Source: Solirubrobacterales bacterium (GTDB lineage: Bacteria; Actinomycetota; Thermoleophilia; Solirubrobacterales; 70-9). From it: a stretch of 64,000 nt of DNA. Positions 10,581 through 49,422 of the stretch are shown one piece after another. Both the position numbers and the translations under genes were made by a program. The DNA is taken from the NCBI GenBank assembly GCA_050180135.1, contig JBFXEM010000001.1:2667-66666 (forward strand), in the 5' to 3' direction. A model generated the notes under the pieces. The model saw only the letters and a list, made by a program, of their open reading frames with translations. It was not told where the DNA came from and ran no database searches. The number at the start of each line of letters is the position of its first letter. The stretch's first letter is position 1.

Positions 10581-12332
10581 CTACCCGGCCGCCTTCCGGA
10601 GCTCAGCCGTCTCGTCCCCTCGCACCGCCTGCGCCTCGACGTCGACGGCGACGCCGTAGATCTCGCGTGCTTCATCGGCAGTGATCAGGTCGTCGAGGAC
10701 GTCGTCGAGCACCCGCTGCGGATCGCGCGCCAACGGCGAGCCGACACCGCCGCCGTTCGGCGAGACGATGCGAAGCACCCGGCCCTTCGGGATCACCCGA
10801 CCCGGCTGCTTCGAGCTCAGCCGCTCGCGGCGATCCGGGTCCTCGAAGTCGAGGGCCATTTCGCTCGGCGCTCCGGAGAGACCGCCATCCATTCCCCAGG
10901 GAGCGTGCAGCTGACCGTCCGCCTCGCTGGAGAAGAACCCGTCGCTGAGGTAACGGTACTCGCGCACGCCACCCTTGCCACCGCGGAACTCCCCGTGCCC
11001 CGGAGGGTTCGCATTCAGCTGCCACTGCACACAGCGCAGCGGGAACTCGGTCTCGATCTCCTCGATCGGGGCGCAGCGGGTGTTGGCGAAGAGGGTGTCG
11101 ACGGCGTCCATCCCGTCCCTCCCCCAGGTGGCGCCGTAGCTGCCCTCGTGGATGTCCATGTGGATCCAGTACTTCTCGTCCACCACGCCGCTGTAGCTGA
11201 GCACGGCGAGCGCCCCGGTGCCGGCGCAACAGAGCTCCGGAACGACCTCGGAGAACGCTTTGACCAGGGTGTCCGCGAGCGTCAGCGCCGGCAGGACGCG
11301 GGCGATCGTGGGCGCCGGGAAGGTCGGGTTGACCATCGTCCCCTTCGGCGCGATGACCTCGATCGGCCGCATCAGGCCACGATTCTGCGGTACCGCCTCG
11401 TGGTCCCAAGTGTCGATCAGAACCGAGCGGACCACGGTGAAGATGGCGCACATCACCGTCCCCTGCAGCGGCATGTTCAACGGCAGGTCATCCAGCTGCG
11501 GCGAGGTTCCGGTGAGGTCGACCTCGATCGAGTCGCCCTTGATCCGCAAGGTGACGGCGAACCGCAGGTTCTTGCTCGCGGGGTCGTCGCGCTCGTCGAA
11601 ACCGTCGGCGAATCCCTCGGCGAAGTACTCGCCATCCGGGACCTTCGCGATCTCGGCGCGCAGCACCCGCTCGGAGTAATCCTCGAACCACTTCTGGGTG
11701 GCGAAGACCTCGTCCTTGCCGACCTCGTCGATCAGCGACAGCAACCGCCGGGCGCCGAGCTCGCAGGCGGCGATCTGCGCCTGCATGTCTCCGACGACGA
11801 TGTCCGGGATGCGAACGTTGTCTTCGATCATCTCCCAGAGCACCGCATTGTCCTCACCCTCGCTGCGGATCTTCAGGGCGCGGAGACGAAGCCCGCAGGC
11901 CCAGTCGTCGACCGCGTCGATCACCGACGTGCCGGGCTTGGAGCAGCCGATCTCGAGGTGGTGCGCGGTCGTGCACGACCAGCCGATCAACTCGTCATCG
12001 CGGAAGATCGGCGCGAAGAAGCCGATGTCCGGCGAGTGCGACGCGCCGCGGTAGGGGTCGTTGTGGATGAAGACGTCTCCGGGTCGGATCGTGTCGCCAC
12101 GTTCCTCGACGGTCTTCAGCACACCCTGCACGTACCAAGGGATCGCCCCCATCTGAAAGGGCGTCGTGTCGGCCTCGCAGAGCTGCCAGCCGTCTTTGTC
12201 GGTCAGCGCGGCGCCGATGTCCTCGGATTCCTTGATGATGATCGAGAAGCCCATGCGGATGAGTTTGCGGCTCATCTCGAGGGCGATCTGGTTGAGGCGA
12301 CCCTGGACGACCTGTGCGGTGATGGGATCCAT
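10581..12332 (-). CDS. hyuB: hydantoinase B/oxoprolinase family subunit (HyuB-like), copy A
   Basis: The real start, 'MDPITAQVVQGRLNQIALEMSRKLIRMGFSIIIKESEDIGAALTD', is at ATG 12332 after AAGGAG. Colinear with 40204..41949. Confidence 0.9.
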   Translation of the reverse strand: MDPITAQVVQGRLNQIALEMSRKLIRMGFSIIIKESEDIGAALTDKDGWQLCEADTTPFQMGAIPWYVQGVLKTVEERGDTIRPGDVFIHNDPYRGASHSPDIGFFAPIFRDDELIGWSCTTAHHLEIGCSKPGTSVIDAVDDWACGLRLRALKIRSEGEDNAVLWEMIEDNVRIPDIVVGDMQAQIAACELGARRLLSLIDEVGKDEVFATQKWFEDYSERVLRAEIAKVPDGEYFAEGFADGFDERDDPASKNLRFAVTLRIKGDSIEVDLTGTSPQLDDLPLNMPLQGTVMCAIFTVVRSVLIDTWDHEAVPQNRGLMRPIEVIAPKGTMVNPTFPAPTIARVLPALTLADTLVKAFSEVVPELCCAGTGALAVLSYSGVVDEKYWIHMDIHEGSYGATWGRDGMDAVDTLFANTRCAPIEEIETEFPLRCVQWQLNANPPGHGEFRGGKGGVREYRYLSDGFFSSEADGQLHAPWGMDGGLSGAPSEMALDFEDPDRRERLSSKQPGRVIPKGRVLRIVSPNGGGVGSPLARDPQRVLDDVLDDLITADEAREIYGVAVDVEAQAVRGDETAELRKAAG

Positions 12333-12343
12333 TGCTAGCTCCT

Positions 12344-14419
12344 TCAGGCGGATGCGCCCGCAGCGGGCGGAATCTCGATGACAAGGTTGTTGCTGGGGTC
12401 TCGTTCGACCGTGCAATCGGGCGGCACGAGGGTGGTCGAGTCGACCTGGGTGACGATCGCCGGCCCCGGCACCCGCTCGCCGACCGGCAGCTTTTCGTGG
12501 GCGTAGACGGACACGTCGACGGTGGACACGCCGTCCCCGGAGTCGAAGCTCGCGGAGGTGTCGCCGACGTGCGCCTCTTCGACGCTGCCACCCGAGACGG
12601 TTGGGGCGCTCAGCCTCGGCAGGCGGCCGGTACCGGTCAGGCGCAGGTTGACGAAGGCGATGCCCATGTCCGTGAACGCGTGGCCGAACTCCTTGCGATG
12701 GGTCTCGTGGAAGTCCTCGCTGAGGCCGGCGATCGTCTCCGCGTCGATCCGACGGGACTGAAGTGGGACTTTGAGCTCGTAGCTCTGCCCCTGGTACCGC
12801 AGGTCGGCGGCCCACTCGATCGTGATGTCCTCATCAGCGATCCCGTCTTCCCTCAGGCGTTCGCGCATCACCTCCTCTTCCGCCTCGTAGCGCCGGCCGA
12901 GCTCCTCCGGGTCGACGCCCGCCAACGGCTGCAAGTAGGACTGGGTCACGTCGTAGCGCAGGTCGGTCGTAAGCAGACCGCTTGCCGAGGTGACGCCGGG
13001 GTGCTCGGGGATGAGCACGCGGGTGATCCCCAGCAGGCGTGCGACCTCTGCCGTCTGCAGCGGACCGCCGCCGCCAAAGCCCGCGAGCAGGAAGTCACGC
13101 GGATCGAGACCACGCTCGATCGTCTTCGTGCGCAGCGCGGCCGCCATGCTCTCGTTGACGACGCGGATGATGCCCGCCGCCGTCTCCAGCAGCCCGAGGC
13201 CGAGCTTCTCGGCGACCGCGCCGACCGCCTGCTCGGCAAGGTCGGGCCGCAGCTCCAAGCCGCCGGCGAGCTCGGAGGGAAGGCGCCCGAGGACGACGTT
13301 GGCGTCGGTCACGGTGGGCTCCGTCCCGCCACGCCCGTATGCGGCCGGCCCCGGTCGAGCGCCGGCGCTGCGCGGACCGACATGCAGACCGCCGGCCTCG
13401 TCGACGTACGCGACGCTGCCGCCGCCGGCGCCGATCGTCTCGATGTCGATCATCGGCACCATGATCGGATAGCCCGCGATCCAGGTATCGCGGGAGCGCG
13501 CCTCGACCAGCCCGCGTTCCGCGACGATCCCGATGTCGGCGCTGGTCCCACCGACGTCGAGCGTCGCCAGGTACTGCTTGTCGCCGCCGGAGGCCCAGAT
13601 CCCGCCCATGACCCCGCCGACCGGTCCCGACAACAGCAAGGTCACCGGCCGCTCCATCGCCGCTTCCGGCTTGGCCGTGCCGCCGTTGGACTGCATCACG
13701 TAGAGCACGTCCTCGGCGCCGATCTCGCGCAGGCGATCGTCGAGACGGCCGATGTAGGAGCGAGTGTCCGGACCGACGAACGCGTTCACCGCGGTGGTCG
13801 TGAAGCGCTCGAACTCGCGGAACTGGGGCACGACGCCGCTCGACGTGCAGACGAAGGCATCGGGCATGACCTTGCGGACGATCGCCGCCGCCTCGTCCTC
13901 GTGGTCGGGGTTCAGGTAGGAGAAGAGGAAGCAGATGGCGACCGAGTCGACTCCTTCGGCGGCGAGCTCGCGGGCGGCGTTGGCGACGGCCTCGCGGTCG
14001 AGTTCCTCGACCACCTCGCCCGAGGGCGGAACCATCCGCTGGGGAACTGGCCGGCGATGGCGTCGGCGGACCAGCGGCCGGGCCTGCCAGGGAATCTCCT
14101 GGCGGATCGAGTAGCTCATCGGGCGCTGGTGACGACCGATGTGGGTGACGTCGCGGAAGCCCTCGGTGGTGATCATCCCGACGGTCGCGCCGTTGAACTC
14201 GAGGATCGCGTTGGTGGCCACGGTCGTCCCGTGGATCAGCAGACCGATGTCCGCCGGAGCGCACCCGGCCTTGGCGGTGATTTCCTCGGTGCCACCGGCG
14301 ATCGTCGCGGCCGTGTCCTCGCCACTGGAAATCTTCAGAACCCACGACTCCAGGGTTTCGGTGTCGTGAAGTATGAAGTCGGTGAAGGTTCCACCGACGT
14401 CGATACCGAGTAGCTTCAT
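12344..14419 (-). CDS. hyuA: hydantoinase A/oxoprolinase family subunit (HyuA-like), copy A
   Basis: 'MKLLGIDVGGTFTDFILHD', 'DVGGTSADIGIV'. 691 aa. The start abuts the M20 stop (TAGATG). Confidence 0.9.
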   Translation of the reverse strand: MKLLGIDVGGTFTDFILHDTETLESWVLKISSGEDTAATIAGGTEEITAKAGCAPADIGLLIHGTTVATNAILEFNGATVGMITTEGFRDVTHIGRHQRPMSYSIRQEIPWQARPLVRRRHRRPVPQRMVPPSGEVVEELDREAVANAARELAAEGVDSVAICFLFSYLNPDHEDEAAAIVRKVMPDAFVCTSSGVVPQFREFERFTTTAVNAFVGPDTRSYIGRLDDRLREIGAEDVLYVMQSNGGTAKPEAAMERPVTLLLSGPVGGVMGGIWASGGDKQYLATLDVGGTSADIGIVAERGLVEARSRDTWIAGYPIMVPMIDIETIGAGGGSVAYVDEAGGLHVGPRSAGARPGPAAYGRGGTEPTVTDANVVLGRLPSELAGGLELRPDLAEQAVGAVAEKLGLGLLETAAGIIRVVNESMAAALRTKTIERGLDPRDFLLAGFGGGGPLQTAEVARLLGITRVLIPEHPGVTSASGLLTTDLRYDVTQSYLQPLAGVDPEELGRRYEAEEEVMRERLREDGIADEDITIEWAADLRYQGQSYELKVPLQSRRIDAETIAGLSEDFHETHRKEFGHAFTDMGIAFVNLRLTGTGRLPRLSAPTVSGGSVEEAHVGDTSASFDSGDGVSTVDVSVYAHEKLPVGERVPGPAIVTQVDSTTLVPPDCTVERDPSNNLVIEIPPAAGASA

Positions 14420-15766
14420 CTACGCGCTCCTAGCCTGTTTGCGGTCTTGACTTTCTGAGCCGGACGCGAGCGAGAGCAGCGCGTTCAGCATGATCTCCAC
14501 GCCGAGAGCCGCGTCTGCGGTCTCTGCGTGCTCGAGCGGCGAGTGACTGATGCCGTCCCGACAGGGGACGAAGACCATCGCGCCGGGGACGTTCCTGGCG
14601 ATGTGCATCGAGTCGTGGCACGACCCGGACCTCATGGTCATGTGGCGCACGCCTGCTTGGCCAGCCGCCGCATCGAGTGCGGCAATCACAGTGTCGTCCA
14701 TCGGCGTGGGCATCACCCGGAAGCGCTCGGAGTGCTCGATCTGCAGGCCGTGTGCCGACGCCGAAGCCTCGGCATCGGCAAGGGCCCGCCCGATGATCTC
14801 GTCGATCTCGTCGCTGTCGGGCCCGCGAACGTCGAGGGAGAGACGCGCGGCACCGGGCACGACATTGATCAGACCGGGGTCGAGCTCGTACTCGCCGACC
14901 GTCGCCACCACGCCGGAGAGACTGGCCTTCGCAAGGTCGAAGATGTTCACCGTCAGCCGAGCCGCCTCGGCACCGGCGTCCCGGCGGATGTCCATCGGCG
15001 TACTCCCGGCGTGATCCGCGCTGCCGGTGAAGCGGACGTCGGCATGCACGATGCCGACGATCGCGTCGACGATTCCGATCGGAGTCTCGGCGTCCTGCAG
15101 CAGCCGCCCTTGCTCGATGTGAAGCTCCATCCATCCGAGCATCTGGTCGAGGGCGTTACCGCACTCGCGCCAGCGGGCGGGCTCGAACCCTGCGGCTTCC
15201 GCATGCGCCCAGAAAGGCTCCCCGTCGTCGAGGGCAGGCAGGCTCCGCAGCAGCTCCTCCGTCGTCGCCTGCGCGATGATCGCCGAACCGAGCATGGTGT
15301 GGCCGAACCCCGACCCCTCCTCCTCGATCGGGACGACGACCTGCAGCGGCAGGTCCAACCCCAGCTCGGACTCGAGCCGGCAGAGCTCGAGCGCGGCGAC
15401 CACGCCGAGCGTGCCGTCGTATTTGCCGCCGTTGCGGTTGGAGTCGCAGTGCGATCCAATGCCGAAGGTCGGGACCCCGTCTGGCCGGTTGCGGGCAATC
15501 AGATTCCCGACCGGGTCCAAGCTCGCCCGGTAGCCGAGTTGCTCGAGCGCCTCGGCGAAGAAGCGAACGGTATTCGCGTACTCGGGGGTGTAGGAGTAGC
15601 GGCTGATCGCGGTCGAGGAGCGGGTGTAGTCCGGTCCGCTCACCGTCTCGAGGTCAGCTTCGATGCGCCGCGCGCTCGAGGCCCGATCGATGGTTACCGC
15701 CAAGTCTGCGCCTCCCTGGTTCGAGATTCCACGATTTGGTTCTTTGTCTGCTTGGCCCATTTGCAT
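14420..15766 (-). CDS. M20 Zn-amidohydrolase, N-carbamoyl-amino-acid / allantoate amidohydrolase family, copy A
   Basis: 'GIGSHCDSNRNGGKYDGTLGVVAALE' matches the AmaB/AllC-type metal motif. ATG 15766 overlaps the upstream TGA by 1 nt. Confidence 0.85.
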   Translation of the reverse strand: MQMGQADKEPNRGISNQGGADLAVTIDRASSARRIEADLETVSGPDYTRSSTAISRYSYTPEYANTVRFFAEALEQLGYRASLDPVGNLIARNRPDGVPTFGIGSHCDSNRNGGKYDGTLGVVAALELCRLESELGLDLPLQVVVPIEEEGSGFGHTMLGSAIIAQATTEELLRSLPALDDGEPFWAHAEAAGFEPARWRECGNALDQMLGWMELHIEQGRLLQDAETPIGIVDAIVGIVHADVRFTGSADHAGSTPMDIRRDAGAEAARLTVNIFDLAKASLSGVVATVGEYELDPGLINVVPGAARLSLDVRGPDSDEIDEIIGRALADAEASASAHGLQIEHSERFRVMPTPMDDTVIAALDAAAGQAGVRHMTMRSGSCHDSMHIARNVPGAMVFVPCRDGISHSPLEHAETADAALGVEIMLNALLSLASGSESQDRKQARSA

Positions 15767-17349
15767 CAACCCATGTACGCCTGCTCGACGATCCGGTCAG
15801 CGCTGAGGTCCTCGCGTCGCAACTCGGTGACTAGACGGCCGTCGCGGATGACCAGTACCCGGTCGCAGAGATGCGCCAGGTCCTCGTACTCAACGCTGGC
15901 GACCAGGACCGCCATACCGCGCTCGCTGGCGCGCTCGACCTCGGCGAAGATCTGCTGGCGGGCGCCGATGTCCACGCCCTGAGTCGGCTCGTGGAGGATC
16001 ATCACCGCGGGTTCGGTCTCGAACCACTTCGCGACCAGGATCTTCTGCTGGTTGCCACCGCTGAACGTCGAGAAGCTCGCCTCCGGAAGCGGCGGTCGCA
16101 CGTCGAACTCCTCAAACAGTTCGGCCGCGCGAGCGCGCTCCTCGCGATGGCGCAGCCGCCATCCCCGGAAGTAGCGCATCAAGGTGGGCAGCGACAGGTT
16201 CTCGAGGCCGGTCGCCTCACCGACACCGCCGCGGATGGCGCGGTCGGCCGGGAGCAACGCCAGGCCCTGGCGCAGCGCCGCGCCGGGCTTCAGGCCTGAG
16301 ATCTCGGTTTTGCGGCCAAGGATCTCCACCGACCCCGTCGCCGGCTCAGCTCCGACGAGCACGTAGGGAAGTTCCTCGAACCCCATCCCGACCAGTCCCG
16401 TCACGCCAAGGATTTCTCCGCGGCGAAGCGTGAACGAGATGTCCTTCAGCAGCTGACCCGAGGCGCCCTCGACCTCCAGGACGGTCTCGCCCTTCTCGCT
16501 GTGGTGCTCGGGGTAGAGCTGGCCCATCTGCCGCCCCAGGATCTGGCTGATCAGGCCCGCGGGATCCATGTCCGCGGCGTCCGAGGTCGCCACCCGGCGA
16601 CCTTCACGCAGGACCGTGACCTTGTCGGCATGGTCGGTGACCTCGTCGAGGCGGTGGGTGACCATCAACACGGCGTGGCCCTCGGAGGTGGCTCGACGCA
16701 CGGATACGAACAGCTCTTTGACGGCGTCCCGGGGCAGGTACACCGTGGTCTCGTCGAGGACGAGCAGGCCCTGCTCGACGTGGCTCAGGCCTTCGAGCGC
16801 CCGCACGATCGCGACGATCGCCCGATCGGCATGGGAGAGCGACTCGATCGTCGCGTCGGGATCGGCCTCGAAGCCGAATCTCTCCATGTGCTCGCGCAGG
16901 TTGCGACGTTCACGGCCCCATGGGATGCGCCAGAGACCGGTGGTTTCGTAGCGGCCAACGCGGAGGTTCTCGAGCACAGTGAGCGAGGGCACGAGGCCGA
17001 GGTCCTGATGGACGAAGGCAAACCCCAGGCCACGCGAATCGGTTGCACGAACCGGCAGCTCGTAGGGCTCCCCGCGAACCAGCATCTCGCCGGCGGGCTC
17101 GGGGCGGTGGTAGCCCGTGAGCACCTTGATGAAGGTCGACTTCCCCGAGCCGTTTTGGCCGAGCAGCGCGTGGACCTCGCCGCCGAGCAGGTCGACCGAG
17201 AACTCGTCGAGAACCTTGCGGGCCCCGAACGACTTCGAGAGCCCGCGCACCTGCACCACGGGCGGGCCCGCCACCGCCGCATCGGCGGTGGATACTCCCG
17301 AGCCTTGCGGCTCGGGAGTATCTTCGCTCGTGCTTATTCGACCTGCCAT
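15766..17349 (-). CDS. ABC transporter ATP-binding protein, duplicated-ATPase CUT2 (RbsA/MglA-like) type, copy A
   Basis: Walker A 'GQNGSGKST', second-domain signature 'FSGGNQQKILVAKW'. ATG 17349 is chosen by alignment with copy B. 16-nt overlap with the SBP gene. Confidence 0.9.
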   Translation of the reverse strand: MAGRISTSEDTPEPQGSGVSTADAAVAGPPVVQVRGLSKSFGARKVLDEFSVDLLGGEVHALLGQNGSGKSTFIKVLTGYHRPEPAGEMLVRGEPYELPVRATDSRGLGFAFVHQDLGLVPSLTVLENLRVGRYETTGLWRIPWGRERRNLREHMERFGFEADPDATIESLSHADRAIVAIVRALEGLSHVEQGLLVLDETTVYLPRDAVKELFVSVRRATSEGHAVLMVTHRLDEVTDHADKVTVLREGRRVATSDAADMDPAGLISQILGRQMGQLYPEHHSEKGETVLEVEGASGQLLKDISFTLRRGEILGVTGLVGMGFEELPYVLVGAEPATGSVEILGRKTEISGLKPGAALRQGLALLPADRAIRGGVGEATGLENLSLPTLMRYFRGWRLRHREERARAAELFEEFDVRPPLPEASFSTFSGGNQQKILVAKWFETEPAVMILHEPTQGVDIGARQQIFAEVERASERGMAVLVASVEYEDLAHLCDRVLVIRDGRLVTELRREDLSADRIVEQAYMG

Positions 17350-18557
17350 AGCTTCTTGTAGTTGGATTTGAAGTCCGTGGTTCCGTACCACGATTCTTCG
17401 CTTGCATCGAGGTCGATTTCGTCGAGGTTTTCCTCGGTGAACATCCGCAGCGGAATGTTCTCGTCGTCGACGGGAGGCTGGCCGGAAAGGACACGGAGCG
17501 ACTGGTCCGCAAGCCCCCAGCCCAGCCAGGTGTACGCGCCGCCGACATCGGCGGCCATGGTGTCACCCTGGGCCATCATTTCCACTACGGCCGGGGTGGC
17601 GTTCAGGCTCACTACCCTGACGTCCGGTTTATTCGCCTGTTCGACGGCCGGCACCACGGTGATCGCCATGCCGTCGTAGAGCGGCATCAGGTATTTCGCA
17701 TCGGGATTCGAAAGCAGCGTCGACCGCGTCAGCGTCGGCAGACGCTTTCCCCAGTCGGCGATTGCCACGTTTTCGATGTTGAAGTCACAGTCCGGGCAGA
17801 GCTCGTCGAACTCGTTTTCGATACCCGCGAGCTCGTCTTCGCCGCTGGTCACTTCTTCGGAGACGAAGATCGTGCCCTTCGCATCCCCCTCGCTGTCGGC
17901 GATCACGTAGTCGGCCATCAGCGCGCCGGCGCATGAGTAACAGGACGTACCGGAAGCGGCGACGGTCGGCAGCTGGACCTTCCCGGGGTCGCCGTTGATC
18001 GCTTCGATCACTTTGACACCGGCACGATCGGCGTCGGCGACGGCGCCCGCGACGAGTTTGGGAGAGATCGACATCAGGACGACCGCGTCGTAGTTCTGCG
18101 AGATCGCCGTTTCCATCCCGCGGTTGAATTCCGACACCTGGCCCTTACCGTCGAACAGGTCGACCTGAACGCCGCCTTCTTTGGCGCCTTCGGACATCGC
18201 GTTGTAGATGTTTTCGACCACGGGGATCTTCGCGTCTACCGCGATGTAGAGAACTTTTTTGCCATCCGCTTTCTTCGCATCGAAGGCCGGGCCCGGCTGT
18301 TCCCATTTCGGTTCGACCATCGCCGCCTGCAGCCGTTCCCTGGCGGTCTCCACCGCGGAGTCGCCGCCGCCTTCGCTCGAACTGGTGCCTTCGGATCCAG
18401 CCGTCTCCGAGCCGGAGCTGCCCGAATCCGAATCGCTCGAGCCGCAGGCCGCGAGAAACAGCACAGTCAGAAGCGCCATCAGCGCGAGCAAAGTGCGGTA
18501 GGCGCCGGTCCTGCGCCGACTGGCTCGGGGAACGCCCCTCTTATCGGTGTTCGACAT
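17334..18557 (-). CDS. ABC transporter substrate-binding lipoprotein (type I periplasmic-binding fold, sugar-family), copy A
   Basis: Lipobox 'FLAACGSSDS', Ser/Gly linker, PBP-like body. ATG 18557 follows AAAGGAGAGA. Confidence 0.85.
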   Translation of the reverse strand: MSNTDKRGVPRASRRRTGAYRTLLALMALLTVLFLAACGSSDSDSGSSGSETAGSEGTSSSEGGGDSAVETARERLQAAMVEPKWEQPGPAFDAKKADGKKVLYIAVDAKIPVVENIYNAMSEGAKEGGVQVDLFDGKGQVSEFNRGMETAISQNYDAVVLMSISPKLVAGAVADADRAGVKVIEAINGDPGKVQLPTVAASGTSCYSCAGALMADYVIADSEGDAKGTIFVSEEVTSGEDELAGIENEFDELCPDCDFNIENVAIADWGKRLPTLTRSTLLSNPDAKYLMPLYDGMAITVVPAVEQANKPDVRVVSLNATPAVVEMMAQGDTMAADVGGAYTWLGWGLADQSLRVLSGQPPVDDENIPLRMFTEENLDEIDLDASEESWYGTTDFKSNYKKLWQVE

Positions 18558-41949: not shown

Positions 41950-41958
41950 GGTGGCTCC

Positions 41959-44031: not shown

Positions 44032-44047
44032 TCAGCGCTCCTTAGCG

Positions 44048-45373
44048 TTATTTGCGGTCGTTCATTGGCTCGCTGGACGCGAGCGAAAGGAGCGCGTTGA
44101 GCATGATCTCCGCGCCCAGGGCAGCATCGGCCGGATCGGCGTACTCGCGGGGCGAGTGGCTGATCCCGTCTCGACAGGGAACGAAAACCATCGCGGCCGA
44201 CACGTGTCTGGCGATGTGCATGGTGTCATGGCACGCCCCCGATCTCATGGTCAAATGGGGGATGCTTAAGCGTTGCGCCGCGCCTTCGAGAGCGTCGACC
44301 ACTCGGCCGTCCATTGGGGTCGGCGCGACCCGCGACCGCTCTGAGTGCTCGACCCGCATCCCGAGCGCGGCCGCTGACGCCTGCGCATTGGCAAGCGCCT
44401 TGTCGAGTACTTCGTCGACCTCGACGCCATCGGGGCCGCGCACGTCGAGGGAGAGTCGCGCGGAACCGGGAACGACGTTGATCAGTCCGGGATCGAGATC
44501 GAGCTCGCCCACCGTGGCAACTACTCCGGAGCGGCTGGCCCTGGCAAGCTCGGTAATTTCGAGGGCGAGCCGGGCCGCCTCGATGCCGGCGTCGCGCCGG
44601 ATCCCCATCGGCGTCGCACCTGCATGGTCGGCGCTCCCGTGAATCGTGACGTCGGCGTGGACGATGCCGACGATCCTGTCGACGATGCCGATGGGTACTT
44701 CGGCGTCCTGCAGGACCCTGCCCTGCTCGATGTGAAGCTCGAGCCAGCCAAGCATCTGCTCGAGCGGGGCCCGACACTCGCGCCAGCGGTCAGGCTCGAA
44801 GCCGGCCGCTTCGGCGTGCGACCAGAAGGACTTGCCGTCGTCGATCGCCCTGAGTTCCCGCAGGTCGACCTCCTCGACTGCCTGGGCCATGATCGCCGAG
44901 CCGAGCATTGCGTGGCCGAACCCGGAGGCCTCCTCCTCAACCGGGACGACCACTTGCAACGGCAGGCCGAGGTTCAGTTCGGAATCGAGCCGACACAGCT
45001 CGAGCGCCGCGACCACGCCCAGGGTGCCGTCGTATCTGCCGCCGTTGCGGTTGGAGTCGCAGTGCGACCCCACGCCATAGGTAGGCTCACCGTCCGGGCG
45101 GTTCCGCGCGATGAAATTGCCGACCGGATCCTCCTGAGTCTCGTAACCGAGCTCTTCGAGTGCGGTAGCGAAGTAGCCGACGGTATTCGTATACTCCGGC
45201 GTGAACGCATAGCGGCAAATGGCGGTCGGCGAGCGGGTGTAACGGGGTCGGCTCACCTCGTCGAGGACCTCTTCAATCCGGCGCGCGCTGCGGGCGCGAT
45301 CGATCTTCACCGCGGGTTCGACAGCGTCCGGCTCAAGCGTGTCCCCTTCCTGTGAAATTCCCATATGACCCAT
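44048..45373 (-). CDS. M20 N-carbamoyl-amino-acid / allantoate amidohydrolase family, copy B
   Basis: 'GVGSHCDSNRNGGRYDGTLGVVAALE'. 441 aa. Confidence 0.85.
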   Translation of the reverse strand: MGHMGISQEGDTLEPDAVEPAVKIDRARSARRIEEVLDEVSRPRYTRSPTAICRYAFTPEYTNTVGYFATALEELGYETQEDPVGNFIARNRPDGEPTYGVGSHCDSNRNGGRYDGTLGVVAALELCRLDSELNLGLPLQVVVPVEEEASGFGHAMLGSAIMAQAVEEVDLRELRAIDDGKSFWSHAEAAGFEPDRWRECRAPLEQMLGWLELHIEQGRVLQDAEVPIGIVDRIVGIVHADVTIHGSADHAGATPMGIRRDAGIEAARLALEITELARASRSGVVATVGELDLDPGLINVVPGSARLSLDVRGPDGVEVDEVLDKALANAQASAAALGMRVEHSERSRVAPTPMDGRVVDALEGAAQRLSIPHLTMRSGACHDTMHIARHVSAAMVFVPCRDGISHSPREYADPADAALGAEIMLNALLSLASSEPMNDRK

Positions 45374-45479
45374 GAGATTAGGCTATATCATCACGGTCTG
45401 TGACGTCAAGTGGAAGCCCAAGTCCACCGTTTTGGCTGTCACTACTGTGCCATTTATGAGCAACTCGGGCACCGTCCGC

Positions 45480-47063
45480 TCAAGCCACGTAGGAGCGCTC
45501 GACGATTCGATCCGCGCTGAGGTCGTCGCGGCGAAGCTCCGCGACCTGGCGACCCTCGCGAACCACGATCACGCGGTCGCACAGGTGCGCCAGATCCTCG
45601 TACTCGACGCTGGCGACGACGACCGCCATCCCACGCTCGCTGGCGCGCTCCACCTCGGCAAAGATCTGCTGGCGGGCGCCGATGTCGACACCCTGCGTTG
45701 GCTCGTGCAGGACCATTACCTCAGGGGCCGTCTCAAACCACTTCGCGACCAGAATCTTCTGCTGGTTGCCGCCGCTGAAGGTAGAGAAGCGCGCGTCGGG
45801 CGCCGGCGGTCGGACGTCGAAGTCACGGAAGAGCTCGATCGTCCGGTCCCGCTCGCGCCGGTGCCGCAGCCTGCCTCGCTGCATGTAGCGCCGGAGGGTG
45901 GGGAGCGTCAGGTTTTCCCGGCCGCTGGCCTCGCCGACACCGCCCCGCAGCGCGCGGTCGGCCGGTAAGAGCGCCATCCCTTGATGTAGCGCGGCGCCCG
46001 GATTGAGATTCGACAGCTTGATGCTCCGGCCATGGATCTCGATCGAGCCGCTCGCCGGCTCCGCCCCGACGAGAACGTAGGGAAGTTCTTCGAACCCCAT
46101 CCCGACGAGTCCGGTGACGCCAAGGATTTCGCCGCGTCGGAGGGTGAAGGAGATGTCCCGGAGGCGCCGTCCAGTGAGACCGTCGACCCTCAGGACCGTA
46201 TCCCCCTTTTCGCTGTGGTGCTCCGGATATAGCTGCCCCATCTGACGGCCGAGAATCTGGTGGATCAGCTCGGCCTGACCAACCTCCGCGGCGGTCGAGG
46301 TCGCGACCCCACGGCCCTCCCGCAAGACGGTGACCTTGTCGGCAAGCTCGGTGACCTCGTCGAGGCGGTGCGTGACCATCAGGACCGCATGGCCCTCGGC
46401 CGTTGCGCGCCGCACCGACACGAACAGCTCCTGTACAGCATCTCGCGGCAGATAGGCCGTCGTCTCGTCGAGGACGAGCAGTCCCTGCTCGACGTCGCCG
46501 AGCTCTTCCAGCGCTCGCACGATCGCGACGATCGCCCGGTCGGCATGCGAGAGAGAGCGGACCGTCGCGTCGGGGTCCGCTTTGAACCCAAACCGCTCCA
46601 TATGCTCTCGGAGCTTGCGGCGTTCGCGACCCCAGGGGATTCGCCATAGGCCACGGGTCTCATAGCGGCCGACGCGCAGGTTCTCCAAGACGGTGAGCTC
46701 GGGGACGAGACCAAGGTCCTGGTGAACGAAGGCGAAGCCGAGGCTTCGTGCGTCGGTCGACTTGACCGGCAGCTCGTACGGTTCGCGGCGAACCAGCAAC
46801 CTGCCACCGCCGTCGGGCCGGTGGTAGCCGGTGAGGATCTTGATAAACGTGGACTTGCCCGACCCGTTCTGTCCGAGCAACGCATGCACCTCACCGCCGA
46901 GCAGCTCGATTGCAAAGTCGTTCAGCACCGGCCGGGCGCCGAAGCTCTTGGAGAGTCCACGCACCTCGACCACCGGCGGACCCGGCGCGCGGACTTCGAA
47001 CGGGCCGGCCTCCGAGCCATTCGGCTCGGAGGCACCGACCTTGGTGTTCAGCCGGTCTTCCAC
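45480..47063 (-). CDS. CUT2-type ABC ATP-binding protein, copy B
   Basis: 'GQNGSGKST', 'FSGGNQQKILVAKW'. GTG start. 16-nt overlap with the SBP gene, as in copy A. Confidence 0.9.
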   Translation of the reverse strand: MEDRLNTKVGASEPNGSEAGPFEVRAPGPPVVEVRGLSKSFGARPVLNDFAIELLGGEVHALLGQNGSGKSTFIKILTGYHRPDGGGRLLVRREPYELPVKSTDARSLGFAFVHQDLGLVPELTVLENLRVGRYETRGLWRIPWGRERRKLREHMERFGFKADPDATVRSLSHADRAIVAIVRALEELGDVEQGLLVLDETTAYLPRDAVQELFVSVRRATAEGHAVLMVTHRLDEVTELADKVTVLREGRGVATSTAAEVGQAELIHQILGRQMGQLYPEHHSEKGDTVLRVDGLTGRRLRDISFTLRRGEILGVTGLVGMGFEELPYVLVGAEPASGSIEIHGRSIKLSNLNPGAALHQGMALLPADRALRGGVGEASGRENLTLPTLRRYMQRGRLRHRRERDRTIELFRDFDVRPPAPDARFSTFSGGNQQKILVAKWFETAPEVMVLHEPTQGVDIGARQQIFAEVERASERGMAVVVASVEYEDLAHLCDRVIVVREGRQVAELRRDDLSADRIVERSYVA

Positions 47064-48289
47064 AGCTTCTTGTAATTGCCCTTGAAGTCCGCTTTTCCGT
47101 ACCAGTCGACTTCCGGGCCTCCAAGGTCGATTTCATCGAGATTTTCCTGGGTGAACATCCGCAGCGGAATGTTCTCGTCCTTGACCGGTGGCACTCCGGC
47201 CAACACACGGAACGTCTGATCCGCAAGGCCCCAGCCCAGCCACACGTTCGCCCCCCCGACGTCTGCCGCCATAACTTCACCTTCGTTCATCATTTCCATG
47301 ACCGACGGGGTCGCATTGAAACTGACCACCTTGACATCCGGTTTGTTGGCCTGCAGGACGGCCGGCACGATGGAGATCGCCATACCGTCGTAGAGCGGAA
47401 TCATGTAGTTGGTCTCTGGATTCGACAGGAGCGTCGATCGAGTCAGAGTCGGAAGCCTCTTGCTCCACTCGGCAATCGGCACGTTCTCCGTGTCGAAATC
47501 GCATTCCGCGCACAGTTCATCGAACTCGCTCATGAGCCCTTTGACCTCGTCGGTCCCGCTAGTCACTTCCTCGGAGACGAAGATGGTGCCGTTGGCATCG
47601 CCGCCGCTGTCTGCAATGACGTAGTCCGCCATCTGCTTGCCGGCGCAGGAATAACAGAACGAGACCGAGGCAGAAACGCCAGGTAGTTGCACCTTGCCGG
47701 GGTCCCCGTTGATAGATTCGATCACCTTGACCCCCGCCCGGTCAGCCTCGGCCACGGCGCCCGCCACCAGTTTCGGTGAGATCGAAAACAGGATGACGGC
47801 ATCGTAGCTCTGGGAGATGGCGGTTTCCATTCCTCGATTGAACTCGGACACCTGACCCTTGCCATCGAACTGGTTCGCCTGCACGCCGACTTCGGCCGCG
47901 GCCTCAGCGAATGCCTTGTAGATCGTCTGAACCACGGGTATCGATGAATCGACCCCTATGAAGAGGACCTTTTTGCCTGTCGCCTTGCTGGCGTCGAAGG
48001 CGGGACCCGGCTGTTTCCATTCCGGTTCGGCCATCGCTGCCTGCAGTCTTTCTTTCGCCTCGCTGACGGGATCGCCTGCCGCGCCGCCGTCGTCGGTCGA
48101 TTCGCCCGTTCCGCCGGAGCTGGAGGCTTCGGTCGCAACGGAACCTTCGTCATCGGTACCGGAACCGCTCGAGCCGCAGGCGGACAGTCCGATGACGGCC
48201 AACAGGGCCAAAAAGACCAACAGAACACGATAGGTACCCAGCCGCCGTCCGACTGCGGATACATCTCTCTCGTCGGTGTGGTGTGACAT
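47048..48289 (-). CDS. ABC substrate-binding lipoprotein, copy B
   Basis: Lipobox 'GLSACGSSGS'. RBS AGAGGAGAGAG. Colinear with copy A. Confidence 0.85.
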   Translation of the reverse strand: MSHHTDERDVSAVGRRLGTYRVLLVFLALLAVIGLSACGSSGSGTDDEGSVATEASSSGGTGESTDDGGAAGDPVSEAKERLQAAMAEPEWKQPGPAFDASKATGKKVLFIGVDSSIPVVQTIYKAFAEAAAEVGVQANQFDGKGQVSEFNRGMETAISQSYDAVILFSISPKLVAGAVAEADRAGVKVIESINGDPGKVQLPGVSASVSFCYSCAGKQMADYVIADSGGDANGTIFVSEEVTSGTDEVKGLMSEFDELCAECDFDTENVPIAEWSKRLPTLTRSTLLSNPETNYMIPLYDGMAISIVPAVLQANKPDVKVVSFNATPSVMEMMNEGEVMAADVGGANVWLGWGLADQTFRVLAGVPPVKDENIPLRMFTQENLDEIDLGGPEVDWYGKADFKGNYKKLWKTG

Positions 48290-48369
48290 CTCTCTCCTCT
48301 TGAATTGACTTTTCCGCCTCGCCGGTCCAAAGGACCCGATTGACGGCCCCGATCCCGACTAACCGATGC

Positions 48370-49422
48370 TTACCCGCCCGTCCGGGCGCGGCCGACGAGC
48401 TTCGAAAACGTCACTGCGACGATCAGCGAGAAGCCGTAGAAGAACTGTTCGACCCAGCCGATCGCCCCGACCAATTGCAGTCCCGTGATGCCGGTCACCA
48501 GGAAATAGACGGATACAAAAGAGCCCCAGGGATTGAAGCGGCCTGGGGTGATAGCGGTTGCTCCGAGGAAGGCGGCAGCGAACGCCGGCAGCAGGTAGCT
48601 GGGACCGACCGTCGGATCCGAGCCGCCGAGCGTACCGGCGAGGACGACGCCGGCCAGGGCGGCCAAGAACCCCGAAAAGACGAGTGACCCCGCCCGGATC
48701 GCTTTGACCCTGACGCCGGTGAGGCGGGCGACCTCGGGACCGGCACCGACGAAGTACAGGTACCGACCAAGCGGAGTGTAGGAGTACACGTACCAGATCA
48801 GGACGGTCAGCGCGAGGCCGAACCAGAAGGCGAGTTGGACACCGAGGAACTGCGTGCGGGCAAGATCGACGAAGCCATGGTCGATCCCACTGAGCGTCGA
48901 ATTTTGCACCCCGACCGCGATTCCGGTCAGAAGCGTTCCCATCCCTAACGTGACGACGAGCGACTCGACTCCGACGACGACCACGAAGAAGGCGTTGATC
49001 AGGCCGGCCATGACTCCTGCTGCCAAGGCGAGCATGATGGCGAGGTAGATCGGCAACCCGACCGTGACGTTGAGCCAGCCCATGAGCACGAGGGACAGAC
49101 CCAACATCCCCGCAACCGAAAGATCGTACTCGCCGGCGCTGAGGGGAACGATGAGTCCCAGTGTCAGGATCAAAAGAACCGCCTGGGAGCCGAAGATGGT
49201 TTGAAAGTTCGAGGCGGTGAGGAACGTGTCTGGCTCCAGAAGGCCGAAGACGACGATCAACGCGATCCAGGCCAGGACGAGCGCAAATCGATAGCCGAGG
49301 TCAACGACTCGCACCCGTCGCGGCTGCCCGGTCGCCTGAACGTCCGTGGCCTTCGTCGTTTGCGTTGTGATCGCGGGGTCCACTATTGGTCGGATCCGTT
49401 GTGCCGTAAGAGACACAAGCAA
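48370..49422 (-). CDS. ABC permease (RbsC/AraH-like), copy B; start uncertain
   Basis: The longest ORF starts at TTG 49422. That position lies at or inside the predicted promoter/TSS. GTG 49314 (VRVVDLGYRFALVLAW...) is favoured by comparison with copy A. Confidence 0.8.
   Translation of the reverse strand: MLVSLTAQRIRPIVDPAITTQTTKATDVQATGQPRRVRVVDLGYRFALVLAWIALIVVFGLLEPDTFLTASNFQTIFGSQAVLLILTLGLIVPLSAGEYDLSVAGMLGLSLVLMGWLNVTVGLPIYLAIMLALAAGVMAGLINAFFVVVVGVESLVVTLGMGTLLTGIAVGVQNSTLSGIDHGFVDLARTQFLGVQLAFWFGLALTVLIWYVYSYTPLGRYLYFVGAGPEVARLTGVRVKAIRAGSLVFSGFLAALAGVVLAGTLGGSDPTVGPSYLLPAFAAAFLGATAITPGRFNPWGSFVSVYFLVTGITGLQLVGAIGWVEQFFYGFSLIVAVTFSKLVGRARTGG
49399..49418 (-). promoter_or_regulatory. 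hairpin TTGTG-N10-CACAA in the predicted leader of ABC/hyu operon B
   Basis: Sits at the same position relative to the -10 box as the copy-A hairpin. The flanking 'tgtgccg' is conserved between the copies. Confidence 0.25.

What the first reader, a model, noticed from the sequence alone, without database searches (positions are those of the whole stretch)
10581..49422. Two diverged copies of an 11-gene set, duplicated as two modules whose order is swapped
- Module H is permease-SBP-ATPase-M20-hyuA-hyuB. It occurs at 19552-10581 and at 49422-40204.
- Module M is RidA/hotdog-ligase-meaB-mutase large-mutase small. It occurs at 26014-20651 and at 37744-32415.
- All genes are on the minus strand. 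Paralogs have the same or nearly the same length (large subunits 565/565 aa, MeaB 301/301, HyuA 691/690, HyuB 583/581). By eye most residues are identical.
- In transcription order copy A is M then H, and copy B is H then M.
- Only copy A keeps hbd, pduO, the small zinc-ribbon ORF, the HIBCH-like gene and GntR. Between its two modules copy B carries decayed SDR and ThDP genes.
- This is an old segmental duplication followed by rearrangement and differential loss. It may reflect sub-functionalisation toward two related substrates.
Basis: seen in the sequence. Interest (0 to 1): 0.7.

Follow-up and report, generated by a model that had tools for sequence, protein, structure and literature searches.

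The report
Twin hydantoin and B12-mutase gene sets
An uncultured Solirubrobacterales bacterium carries two roughly 80%-identical versions of a gene set that probably takes up a hydantoin, converts it to an unusual amino acid (most likely 2-aminoisobutyrate) and degrades it with a vitamin-B12 enzyme. The two versions are real, but they are old relatives put together separately, not one block copied in place.

Summary
All 11 gene pairs exist at the stated coordinates (66-88% amino-acid and 75-81% nucleotide identity), all 22 genes are intact, and dN/dS is 0.10-0.34.

- M-A and M-B fall in different clades (100% bootstrap), and each has closer orthologs in other genomes.
- The whole copy-B layout (H, then lyase, then M, then LysR/DGD/YbaK) recurs in another species at 87-95% identity. 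There H is flanked by transposase and recombinase genes.
- For all 11 genes, A differs more from B than B differs from that relative.
- H therefore behaves as a mobile cassette joined to M twice. There is no sign of a rearrangement after a single 11-gene duplication, and no sign of accelerated sub-functionalisation.

Function (inferred):
- H is an ABC importer, an ATP-dependent N-methylhydantoinase-like HyuAB and an L-carbamoylase-like M20 enzyme.
- M is a beta-aminoacyl-CoA ammonia-lyase-like hotdog (fused to RidA), a CoA ligase, MeaB and an HcmA-like mutase with a Val/Asp/Gln signature.
- M sits beside a dialkylglycine decarboxylase homolog.

The locus is best read as a 2-aminoisobutyrate island, possibly with an undescribed aminoacyl-CoA mutase.

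The parts
10053..10556 (+). Second YbaK-like (aminoacyl-tRNA editing domain) gene, converging on hyuB_A
   Evidence: Pfam tRNA_edit E 6e-24. 58% identical to the YbaK-like gene at 29421-29921.
10581..12332 (-). hyuB_A (hydantoinase B subunit), H-A
   Evidence: Pfam Hydantoinase_B E 7e-139. 86.6% identical to hyuB_B.
12344..14419 (-). hyuA_A (hydantoinase A subunit), H-A
   Evidence: Pfam Hydant_A_N, Hydantoinase_A and Hydant_A_C. Best PDB match is N-methylhydantoinase 7HK5 at 581 bits; acetone carboxylase scores 193 bits.
14420..15769 (-). M20 carbamoylase-type amidohydrolase, H-A (start perhaps 15703)
   Evidence: TIGR01879 hydantoinase/carbamoylase family, 285 bits, above the 204-bit cut-off. 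Best PDB match is N-carbamoyl-L-amino acid hydrolase 3N5F.
15766..17391 (-). ABC ATPase (two ABC domains), H-A (start perhaps 17349)
   Evidence: Pfam ABC_tran x2. The 527-aa gene call comes from L001.
17334..18560 (-). Periplasmic binding protein (Peripla_BP_4), H-A
   Evidence: 70% identical to SBP_B.
18641..19654 (-). ABC permease (BPD_transp_2), H-A
   Evidence: The 337-aa gene call comes from L001. Homology to perm_B runs to 19654.
19670..19687 (.). Palindrome TGTGCC-N6-GGCACA upstream of perm_A; conserved in all three known H modules
   Evidence: 3 matches in the window; 0.01 expected by chance.
19773..20636 (-). hbd, 3-hydroxybutyryl-CoA dehydrogenase (single copy, between M-A and H-A)
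   Evidence: Pfam 3HCDH_N and 3HCDH. NF005875, 415 bits, above the 319-bit cut-off.
20651..21085 (-). Mutase small (B12-binding) subunit A
   Evidence: Pfam B12-binding. DGHDRG motif at residue 24.
21106..22803 (-). Mutase large subunit A (HcmA-like, Val/Asp/Gln signature)
   Evidence: Pfam MM_CoA_mutase E 8e-198. Best PDB match is HcmA 4R3U, E 3e-174. 48% identical to HcmA. Signature residues.
22791..23696 (-). MeaB-type G-protein chaperone A
   Evidence: Pfam MeaB E 3e-68. P-loop GPPGAGKS.
23680..25182 (-). Acyl-CoA ligase A (ANL family; not the HCL type)
   Evidence: Pfam AMP-binding and AMP-binding_C. Best PDB matches are FadD, feruloyl-CoA and malonyl-CoA synthetases.
25184..26014 (-). 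RidA + KAL/ACL-like hotdog fusion A
   Evidence: Pfam Ribonuc_L-PSP and 4HBT. NF052388 3-aminobutyryl-CoA ammonia lyase, E 4e-29, below the cut-off. PDB match beta-alanyl-CoA:ammonia lyase 4MTU.
26221..27048 (+). Small Cys-rich ORF (26221-26481) and PduO-type cobalamin adenosyltransferase (26485-27048)
   Evidence: The small ORF is conserved in L001 and, weakly, in L002.
27039..28100 (-). HIBCH-like ECH_2 enoyl-CoA hydratase/hydrolase
   Evidence: Pfam ECH_2 E 2e-113. NF004127, 408 bits, above the 274-bit cut-off.
28155..29183 (+). GntR-family regulator (conserved partner of M in relatives)
29421..29921 (+). YbaK-like editing-domain protein
   Evidence: Pfam tRNA_edit E 2e-27. Present near M in L002, L004 and L005.
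29936..31330 (-). 2,2-dialkylglycine decarboxylase (DGD) homolog
   Evidence: PDB 1D7R, E 2e-160, 537 bits; the next enzyme type scores 230 bits.
31388..32290 (+). LysR regulator, divergent from the DGD gene (dgdR-like arrangement)
   Evidence: Pfam HTH_1 and LysR_substrate. The same pair occurs in L005.
32415..37744 (-). M-B: mutase small 32415-32840, mutase large 32863-34560, meaB 34548-35453, ligase 35437-36942, RidA-KAL 36944-37744
   Evidence: Orthologous to L004 and L005.
37921..40067 (.). Decayed SDR fragment (-) and frameshifted 2-hydroxyacyl-CoA lyase pseudogene (+) in the position they hold in the relative
   Evidence: The HACL matches lie in three frames and the ORFs are broken. 87.3% nt identity to the relative's pair; 76.4% to the intact window pair.
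40204..49422 (-). H-B: hyuB 40204-41949, hyuA 41959-44031, M20 44048-45373, ATPase 45480-47063, SBP 47048-48289, permease 48370-49422 (true start probably near 49383)
   Evidence: HyuA_B is 95% identical to P0002 of GCA_046330305.1. Palindrome at 49400-49417.
49547..51697 (.). Junk at the outer border of H-B: broken sigma-r4-like ORF, IS21-like HTH fragment (49984-50313) and an MFS gene with an in-frame stop (50444-51697)
51944..54507 (.). Intact SDR (51944-52702, -) and intact actinobacterial 2-hydroxyacyl-CoA lyase (52807-54507, +)
   Evidence: NF058623, 611 bits, above the 600-bit cut-off. PDB 7PT1, 440 bits. 82-83% identical to the lyases of L004 and L005.

Best explanation
What it is (shown). 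The window holds two complete, intact and anciently diverged versions of two linked catabolic modules.

- Version B runs H-B, decayed lyase, M-B, then LysR/DGD/YbaK/GntR/HIBCH/PduO. It is the ortholog of a collinear locus in at least one other Solirubrobacterales species. Its M part is also orthologous to a third species.
- Version A is a single 12-gene, 15.4-kb run: RidA-KAL, ligase, meaB, mutase large, mutase small, hbd, permease, SBP, ATPase, M20, hyuA, hyuB. It belongs to a different M clade with its own orthologs elsewhere.

The two M modules are therefore old paralogs or xenologs that predate these species. H is a compositionally distinct, self-contained cassette. It has its own conserved upstream palindrome and has IS elements around it in the relative. 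It was joined to M on different sides in the two versions. That explains the swapped order without any rearrangement after a duplication.

How it works (inferred from homology and conserved gene context).
1. H imports a hydantoin through a CUT2-type ABC system.
2. An ATP-dependent N-methylhydantoinase-like HyuAB opens the ring.
3. An L-carbamoylase-type M20 enzyme removes the carbamoyl group and releases an amino acid. The simplest candidate route is 5,5-dimethylhydantoin to 2-aminoisobutyrate (AIB).
4. In M, the ligase makes the CoA thioester.
5. The HcmA-like mutase, loaded by MeaB and PduO, shifts the carbon skeleton: 2-substituted isobutyryl-CoA becomes 3-substituted butyryl-CoA.
6. The KAL/ACL-like hotdog eliminates ammonia to give crotonyl-CoA.
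7. The ECH_2 enzyme and Hbd lead on to acetoacetyl-CoA.

DGD (AIB to acetone) and the lyase (2-hydroxyisobutyryl-CoA <-> acetone + formyl-CoA) supply a second branch.
For: Evolution.
- The pairs are real and old.
- The trees separate A and B with 100% bootstrap.
- B against the relative gives dS 0.25-0.50. For 11 of 11 genes that is less than A against B, in both dS and dN.
- HyuA_B is 95% identical to P0002.
- The order H -> HACL -> M is collinear in GCA_046330305.1, where transposase and recombinase genes flank H.
- The decayed lyase is 87% identical (nt) to the relative's lyase but 76% to the intact window copy.
- No H module lies within 10 kb of the mutase in any of the 80 loci. The relative's H is the one known case and lies about 7 kb beyond its lyase.
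- GC3 is 0.74-0.84 in H-B and 0.90-0.95 in M-B.
- The palindrome upstream of the permease is conserved in all three H modules.
- An independent assembly reproduces the M-A/hbd/H-A junction.
- Both versions are seen in the same two sequencing runs.

Function.
- HyuA matches N-methylhydantoinase at 581 bits.
- M20 matches TIGR01879 above its cut-off and L-carbamoylase 3N5F.
- DGD scores 537 bits.
- The lyase matches NF058623 above its cut-off.
- The hotdog domain matches only beta-aminoacyl-CoA ammonia lyases.
- The hotdog sits directly upstream of the ligase in 13 of 15 further loci of this mutase clade. One more (L166) keeps a 45-aa remnant and one (L008) has none. It is 67-86% conserved in 12 of the 13 (46% in L009).
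- The whole mutase clade has Val90/Asp117/Gln208, that is, the polar-substituent Asp of HcmA.
- The neighbours in other genomes are all enzymes that release amino acids: M19, S58 and S9 peptidases and GGT in Jiangella and Nonomuraea, and a gamma-glutamylation set in L170.
- YbaK-like editing proteins recur next to M.
Against: - No species tree is available, so an ancient duplication followed by losses cannot be separated from horizontal transfer.
- The three H modules (A, B and the relative's) form a tight group (at least 87% identity; the next relative is at 69%). H-A could therefore descend from an H-B-like copy inside this lineage.
- dS is uneven: 0.38-0.47 in mutS, mutL and meaB against 0.74-1.34 in the other eight genes.
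- The window comes from a MAG contig, and the A-B junction region has no independent assembly.
- Functional assignments rest on homology and context only.
- The KAL-like domain scores below the NCBIfam cut-off (101 against 160 bits).
- The Asp117 signature and the adjacent 2-hydroxyisobutyryl-CoA lyase fit a 2-hydroxyisobutyrate substrate equally well.
- No hydantoin substrate is identified.
- Knowledge of the HcmA signature residues comes from my memory of Yaneva 2012 and Kurteva-Yaneva 2015, which could not be read here.
Confidence: 0.55

Rival explanations
1. One old in-genome segmental duplication copied a single 11-gene (or larger) H+M block. A later rearrangement swapped the module order, and accessory genes were then lost differentially.
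For: - H and M pairs have similar nucleotide identity, 75-81%.
- Both copies lie within 40 kb.
- The YbaK-like gene and the SDR-lyase pair are also duplicated.
- H-A and H-B are each other's closest relatives apart from one other genome.
Against: - M-A and M-B sit in different, well-supported clades, each with orthologs in other genomes.
- For every gene, B is closer to the relative than to A.
- The 'rearranged' B order is the conserved one in another species.
- Alpha-type M+hbd occurs elsewhere without H (L002, L171, L172).
- The model needs the duplication to predate several species and the A type to be lost repeatedly.
Confidence: 0.2
2. Functional rival. M is an ordinary 2-hydroxyisobutyrate pathway: the ligase makes 2-hydroxyisobutyryl-CoA, an HCM-type mutase makes 3-hydroxybutyryl-CoA, and Hbd follows. 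The hotdog domain acts as a thioesterase or dehydratase. H is an unrelated hydantoin-utilisation cassette that merely lies nearby. Alternatively, DGD-derived acetone is condensed with formyl-CoA by the lyase and passed to the mutase.
For: - The best PDB match of the large subunit is HcmA, and Asp117 and Gln208 are conserved.
- A bona fide 2-hydroxyisobutyryl-CoA lyase homolog accompanies M in the window and in L004, L005, L009, L168 and L171. L008 has only a 46% homolog.
- GntR and hbd are partners, as in known hcm clusters.
Against: - The ligase is not the HCL type.
- The large subunit is only 48% identical to HcmA, with Val in place of Ile90.
- The strictly conserved hotdog partner matches only beta-aminoacyl-CoA ammonia lyases.
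- M-A, hbd and H-A form one tightly packed same-strand run.
- The neighbours in other genomes release amino acids, not hydroxy acids.
Confidence: 0.3
3. Assembly artefact. The MAG contig joins the loci of two related strains or species, so the two copies do not co-reside in one genome.
For: - The window comes from an 86-kb MAG contig.
- Only short Logan contigs back up the B side.
Against: - The copies are only about 80% identical, so no long shared k-mers exist to mis-join them.
- 6.4 kb of unique genes connects M-A to M-B.
- L001 reproduces 11 kb of copy A.
- Exact proteins of both copies occur in the same runs, SRR32609465 and SRR32609469.
- The relative also has two M modules on one 807-kb contig.
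Confidence: 0.05

Closest known systems
hcl-hcmA-hcmB-meaH cluster for 2-hydroxyisobutyrate (Aquincola tertiaricarbonis, Methylibium; PDB 4R3U; Rohwerder et al. 2020, PMC7176365)
   Same: - Split large and small B12 mutase subunits.
- A MeaB-type chaperone, an acyl-CoA ligase in the same operon and a GntR regulator nearby.
- Asp117 and Gln208 equivalents are present.
- The product would feed Hbd.
   Different: - The large subunit is only 48% identical, with Val instead of Ile90.
- The ligase belongs to a different ANL subgroup.
- There is an extra, strictly conserved KAL/ACL-like ammonia-lyase domain (here fused to RidA).
- It is associated with DGD, YbaK-like proteins and amino-acid-releasing enzymes.
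Actinobacterial lyase-HCL cluster (Actinomycetospora chiangmaiensis; 2-hydroxyisobutyryl-CoA -> acetone + formyl-CoA; PMC7176365, PMC8760513; PDB 7PT1)
   Same: - The window's ThDP enzyme passes the NCBIfam equivalog model for this lyase.
- It lies next to a CoA-ligase-containing operon.
   Different: - A. chiangmaiensis was reported to lack the mutase. Here lyase and mutase are combined.
- One of the two lyase copies has decayed.
- mpdB and mpdC are absent.
dgdA/dgdR of Burkholderia cepacia (2,2-dialkylglycine decarboxylase and its divergent LysR regulator; PDB 1DGD, 1D7R)
   Same: - A DGD homolog at 537 bits.
- A divergently transcribed LysR gene.
   Different: Embedded in a much larger locus. 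Activity and inducer are untested.
Hydantoin-utilisation (hyu) systems and ATP-dependent N-methylhydantoinase (PDB 7HK5) plus L-carbamoylase (PDB 3N5F)
   Same: HyuA and HyuB plus an M20 carbamoylase-type amidohydrolase and a dedicated transporter, all in one operon.
   Different: - An ABC (CUT2-type) importer instead of an NCS1 permease.
- No racemase was seen among the annotated genes.
- HyuA and HyuB are separate proteins.
- In copy A, directly fused in an operon with a B12-mutase pathway.
Lysine-fermentation KAL (3-aminobutyryl-CoA ammonia lyase) and Clostridium propionicum beta-alanyl-CoA:ammonia lyase (PDB 4MTU)
   Same: The hotdog domain matches only these enzymes. The proposed substrate, 3-aminobutyryl-CoA, is KAL's own substrate.
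   Different: - The score is below the equivalog cut-off.
- Fused to RidA.
- Aerobic actinobacterial context beside a mutase.
AibH1H2 hydroxylase route for AIB in Rhodococcus wratislaviensis (PMC10029006)
   Same: The same presumed substrate, 2-aminoisobutyrate.
   Different: Entirely different chemistry (C-H hydroxylation), and no homologous genes here.

Membership tests
In-genome segmental duplication (the process claimed) | The paralog pairs are each other's closest relatives | tested here: not met
   M: winB groups with L004, L005 and L167; winA groups with L166 and L170; both at 100% bootstrap. H: HyuA_B is 95% identical to the relative's HyuA and 87.6% to HyuA_A.
In-genome segmental duplication (the process claimed) | Uniform synonymous divergence across the block | tested here: not met
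   dS is 0.38-0.47 for mutS, mutL and meaB and 0.74-1.34 for the other eight pairs.
In-genome segmental duplication (the process claimed) | Collinear gene order within the copies | tested here: met
   Order is collinear within H and within M. It is not collinear between the modules.
2-hydroxyisobutyryl-CoA mutase system (HcmAB/MeaH/HCL) | Large subunit homologous to HcmA, with a separate B12-binding small subunit (DxHxxG) and a MeaB-type chaperone | tested here: met
   4R3U E 3e-174. DGHDRG motif and P-loop present. Pfam.
2-hydroxyisobutyryl-CoA mutase system (HcmAB/MeaH/HCL) | Substrate signature Ile90/Asp117/Gln208 (from my memory of the HcmA papers) | tested here: inconclusive
   Val/Asp/Gln in both copies and in the whole actinobacterial clade.
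2-hydroxyisobutyryl-CoA mutase system (HcmAB/MeaH/HCL) | HCL-type 2-HIBA-CoA ligase in the operon | tested here: not met
   The 60 best PDB matches are FadD, feruloyl, malonyl and NRPS-type ANL enzymes; no HCL is among them.
2-hydroxyisobutyryl-CoA mutase system (HcmAB/MeaH/HCL) | Interconverts 2-hydroxyisobutyryl-CoA and 3-hydroxybutyryl-CoA | not testable with these tools
   Needs an enzyme assay.
Hydantoin utilisation (ATP-dependent hydantoinase + carbamoylase) | HyuA and HyuB subunits of the hydantoinase/oxoprolinase family | tested here: met
   Pfam. N-methylhydantoinase 7HK5 at 581 bits. The caprolactamase models are below their cut-offs.
Hydantoin utilisation (ATP-dependent hydantoinase + carbamoylase) | N-carbamoyl-amino-acid amidohydrolase | tested here: met
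   TIGR01879 at 285 and 305 bits, above the 204-bit cut-off. PDB 3N5F.
Hydantoin utilisation (ATP-dependent hydantoinase + carbamoylase) | Identity of the hydantoin substrate | not testable with these tools
   5,5-dimethylhydantoin is an inference from the AIB context only.
Actinobacterial 2-hydroxyacyl-CoA lyase | Passes the curated equivalog model | tested here: met
   NF058623 at 611 bits, above the 600-bit cut-off. PDB 7PT1 at 440 bits. The second copy is a pseudogene.
2,2-dialkylglycine decarboxylase / DgdR | Close homology to DGD, and a divergent LysR regulator | tested here: met
   537 bits to 1D7R; the next enzyme type scores 230 bits. LysR lies 57 bp away on the other strand.
KAL/ACL beta-aminoacyl-CoA ammonia lyases | Passes the curated equivalog model | tested here: not met
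   NF052388 at 101 and 96 bits, below the 160-bit cut-off, although nearly the full profile is covered. This marks a homolog, not an equivalog.

The most novel reading that the evidence does not exclude
The conserved actinobacterial module is a KAL-like ammonia lyase, an ANL ligase, MeaB and a Val/Asp/Gln mutase, present here twice. It may encode an undescribed coenzyme-B12-dependent 2-aminoisobutyryl-CoA mutase pathway: AIB -> AIB-CoA -> 3-aminobutyryl-CoA -> crotonyl-CoA + NH3. That would be a third route for degrading alpha,alpha-dialkyl amino acids. Different lineages would supply it through interchangeable feeder cassettes:
- hydantoinase plus carbamoylase here;
- peptidases in Jiangella and Nonomuraea;
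- a gamma-glutamylation set in L170.

No paper in the searchable library mentions aminoisobutyryl-CoA.
Probability: 0.4. Interest if true: 0.8.

Novelty: new variant of a known kind. Interest (0 to 1): 0.5.

Why it matters
The duplication itself is ordinary biology for catabolic islands. What the comparison shows is how such islands are built: a mobile 'feeder' cassette (hydantoin uptake and hydrolysis) has been attached to a conserved 'core' pathway at least twice, in different orientations.

The core is the more interesting part.
- It is a distinct clade of HcmA-like B12 mutases that always travels with a beta-aminoacyl-CoA ammonia-lyase homolog and, in most of the longer loci examined, lies within about 10 kb of a dialkylglycine decarboxylase homolog.
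- If it acts on 2-aminoisobutyryl-CoA, it would add a new substrate class (alpha-amino acyl-CoA) to the carbon-skeleton mutases.
- It would also explain how soil actinobacteria use AIB from fungal peptaibols or from synthetic 5,5-dimethylhydantoin.
- Together with the neighbouring 2-hydroxyacyl-CoA lyase, it would offer parts for C1 and tertiary-carbon biocatalysis.

Tried and rejected
- A metagenome-contig scan with lig_A found nothing close: best 60%, the rest generic 30-37% ligases.
- Promoter and terminator scans were at chance level.
- There were no Rfam families (so no cobalamin riboswitch) and no tRNA genes.
- The HcmA and RcmA primary papers are not held. The signature-residue roles therefore rest on my memory, and RcmA was not compared.
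- Literature searches found nothing for mutase+hydantoinase, aminoisobutyryl-CoA, DGD+mutase or dimethylhydantoin+hydantoinase.
- The first NJ run timed out and was redone with my own distance code.

Readings considered and rejected:
- HyuAB as acetone carboxylase. It scores 193 bits against 581 for N-methylhydantoinase, and there is no gamma subunit.
- HyuAB as caprolactamase. The scores are far below the NCBIfam cut-offs.
- A recent duplication. dS is at least 0.38.
- The intact SDR-lyase pair as the alpha-type partner of M-A. It is 82-83% identical to beta-type lyases and 72% to the alpha-type lyase of L171, so its origin stays open.
- Accelerated divergence of 'specificity' genes as evidence for sub-functionalisation. 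The same rank order of dN is seen between B and its ortholog.

Full report
OBSERVATION

Self-BLASTN of the window gives three long collinear matches, all at E = 0:
- 10597-15700 ~ 40214-45313, 80.9%.
- 15766-19579 ~ 45480-49308, 75.2%.
- 20681-25963 ~ 32436-37720, 79.6%.

All 22 genes are on the minus strand and have intact reading frames. Pair identities run from 66-69% (RidA-hotdog, ligase) to 87-88% (HyuA, HyuB). Pfam and NCBIfam confirm each family.

Two more duplicated items were not in the finding:
- The decayed SDR/ThDP stretch at 37981-40011 has an intact counterpart at 51944-54507, 76.4% nt.
- A second intact YbaK-like gene lies at 10053-10556, 58% identical to 29421-29921.

Homology ends abruptly at the module borders.

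AGE AND SELECTION

Nei-Gojobori estimates give dS 0.38-1.34 and dN/dS 0.10-0.34 for all 11 pairs. The copies are old and both have been under purifying selection.

dS is uneven. It is 0.38-0.47 in mutS, mutL and meaB and 0.74-1.34 in the other eight pairs. Patches of 87-95% identity lie inside meaB and mutL. Possible causes are gene conversion or an extreme GC3 of 0.93-0.95. This remains unresolved.

WHO IS RELATED TO WHOM

The window is from a Solirubrobacterales MAG. The exact proteins are in NCBI on an 86,126-bp contig. A Logan contig (L001) reproduces 11 kb of copy A at 99.3-100% protein identity for the coding genes.

A scan of one genome per species found close mutase homologs (74-89%) in only eight genomes. 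Identity then drops to 55% or less, and the sampled proteins there carry ICM- or MCM-type signatures.

Synteny maps and trees show that M-B is the ortholog of the module in L004 (GCA_046330305.1) and L005:
- mutL is 93-95% identical, the ligase 81-85%.
- Bootstrap support is 100%.

M-A belongs to another clade:
- It groups with L166 and L170 (ligase 81-82%, 100% bootstrap).
- That group lies next to L002 and L171.

GCA_046330305.1 itself has a second beta-type M 420 kb away (L167).

For H, only three close modules exist in the databases: A, B and one in GCA_046330305.1. HyuA_B is 95% identical to that one and 87.6% to HyuA_A. The next relative is at 69%.

For all 11 genes, both dS and dN are larger between A and B than between B and the relative.

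LAYOUT

In GCA_046330305.1 the order is:
- permease-SBP-ATPase-M20-hyuA-hyuB;
- then transposases and a serine recombinase;
- then lyase (-), a broken SDR and M.

An IS1595 transposase lies upstream of H. The window's copy B has the same order without the mobile genes. Its decayed lyase region is 87.3% identical to the relative's lyase region but 76.4% to the window's intact copy.

Downstream of M-B, the run LysR(-) DGD(+) YbaK(-) ... HIBCH(+) matches L005. The 'accessory' genes between the two M modules therefore belong by synteny to the B-type locus rather than to copy A.

Copy A is one tight run of 12 same-strand genes with overlaps or gaps of at most 118 nt. An M+hbd arrangement also occurs in L002, L171 and L172, there without H. 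None of the 80 mutase loci has H within 10 kb.

Several features mark H as a self-contained cassette:
- It has lower GC3 than M: 0.74-0.84 against 0.90-0.95 in B.
- It carries a conserved palindrome, TGTGYC-N6-GGCACA, upstream of its permease in all three known copies.
- In the window it is bordered by IS and sigma-factor fragments and a broken MFS gene.

The simplest reading is that H is a mobile cassette attached to two already diverged M lineages on different sides. I cannot decide between an ancient duplication with losses and horizontal transfer of one version, because no species tree can be made from the data at hand.

FUNCTION (inferred)

H module:
- HyuA matches N-methylhydantoinase far better than caprolactamase or the carboxylases: 581 bits against 416 and 251 or less.
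- The M20 enzyme passes the hydantoinase/carbamoylase family model and best matches an L-carbamoylase.
- The transporter is a complete CUT2-type ABC system.

M module:
- The large subunit best matches HcmA but is only 48% identical to it.
- The whole actinobacterial clade carries Val/Asp/Gln at the positions that are Ile90/Asp117/Gln208 in HcmA. The corresponding residues are Phe/Ala/Gln in ICM-like proteins and Tyr/Ala/Arg in MCM. The role of these residues is from my own knowledge of the HcmA literature.
- The ligase is not of the HCL type.
- The hotdog half of the first gene matches only 3-aminobutyryl-CoA ammonia lyase (E 4e-29, below the cut-off) and beta-alanyl-CoA:ammonia lyase.
- That domain sits directly upstream of the ligase in 13 of 15 further loci; L166 keeps only a remnant and L008 has none. 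It is as well conserved as the mutase in 12 of them, 67-86% (46% in L009). The RidA fusion is confined to the Solirubrobacterales-type clades.

Neighbours:
- The aminotransferase between the M modules is a close homolog of 2,2-dialkylglycine decarboxylase (537 bits) with a divergent LysR gene.
- DGD homologs (59-60%) also lie near the module in Jiangella and Nonomuraea, together with M19, S58 and S9 peptidases and gamma-glutamyl transpeptidase.
- L170 has a gamma-glutamylation-type set directly upstream.
- The ThDP enzyme passes the equivalog model for the actinobacterial 2-hydroxyisobutyryl-CoA lyase. That enzyme was described in a strain that lacks the mutase (PMC7176365).

All these parts deal with a tertiary C4 skeleton, and most deal with an amino acid. 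This makes 2-aminoisobutyrate the most economical common substrate. It also makes the route AIB-CoA -> 3-aminobutyryl-CoA -> crotonyl-CoA chemically coherent for M, with 5,5-dimethylhydantoin as the simplest substrate for H.

The classical 2-hydroxyisobutyrate reading remains a serious rival. Nothing here was tested biochemically. I found no paper on such a pathway. The known AIB routes are DGD and the AibH hydroxylase (PMC10029006).

SUB-FUNCTIONALISATION

The most diverged pairs are the ligase, RidA-hotdog, SBP and M20. The same rank order holds between B and its ortholog, and the ratio dN(A-B)/dN(B-relative) is 1.8-4 for all genes. Both mutases have the same signature. There is therefore no positive evidence for two substrates. 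Different regulation (one long operon against separate H and M units) is as likely an explanation.

VERDICT

The duplication itself is of moderate interest. The conserved KAL-ligase-MeaB-mutase core beside DGD is the part worth following up.

Noticed in passing
window 19670-19687 and 49400-49417; L082 about 4600: A palindrome, TGTGYC-N6-GGCACA, lies just upstream of the permease gene in all three known H modules (0.01 matches expected by chance). It is probably an operator or a 5' hairpin. It also suggests that the TTG start of perm_B at 49422 is too far upstream.
   Followed up: partly
window 49547-51697: The outer border of H-B holds a broken sigma-70-region-4-like ORF, an IS21-like HTH fragment (49984-50313) and an MFS transporter gene interrupted by an in-frame stop at 50798.
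   Followed up: partly
window 1495-5637 and 60712-62166: A ParB-like protein (539 aa), an 816-aa ORF with no Pfam match and a DDE_Tnp_1_4 transposase flank the locus. This hints at a plasmid or a genomic island.
   Followed up: no
window 21690-22690 and 23190-23590: Patches of 84-95% nucleotide identity between M-A and M-B lie inside mutL and meaB. A-B dS is only about 0.38 there, against 0.74-1.34 in the eight pairs outside mutS/mutL/meaB. Gene conversion is possible.
   Followed up: partly
L171 2395-4530: A ThDP (lyase-like, 72% identical to the window lyase) enzyme is fused at its C-terminus to a RidA domain. It lies directly upstream of RidA-KAL, ligase, MeaB, mutase and hbd. RidA thus recurs with both candidate C-N or C-C cleaving enzymes.
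   Followed up: no
L170 2653-7008: In an alpha-type relative (ligase 81-82% identical to lig_A), a glutamine-synthetase-like gene, an SDR, a Peptidase_C26 and an aldehyde dehydrogenase sit directly upstream of M. This looks like a gamma-glutamylation feeder for an amine or amino alcohol.
   Followed up: no
L167 (GCA_046330305.1, contig positions 649192-670691): The relative has a second beta-type M module. It lies beside a split alanine racemase, an SBP_bac_5 protein, another class-III aminotransferase, a thiolase with DUF35 and a third B12 mutase.
   Followed up: partly
L004 5959-6662: The SDR next to the lyase is also frameshifted in the relative, so loss of that SDR predates the split from the window's copy B. 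Only the decay of the lyase is specific to the window.
   Followed up: partly
L168 (Jiangella endophytica) and L169 (Nonomuraea sp.): In cultured actinomycetes the same KAL-ligase-MeaB-mutase core sits among M19, S58 and S9 peptidases, GGT, a DGD homolog and (in Jiangella) a lyase with a second ligase. These strains could serve for experiments.
   Followed up: partly
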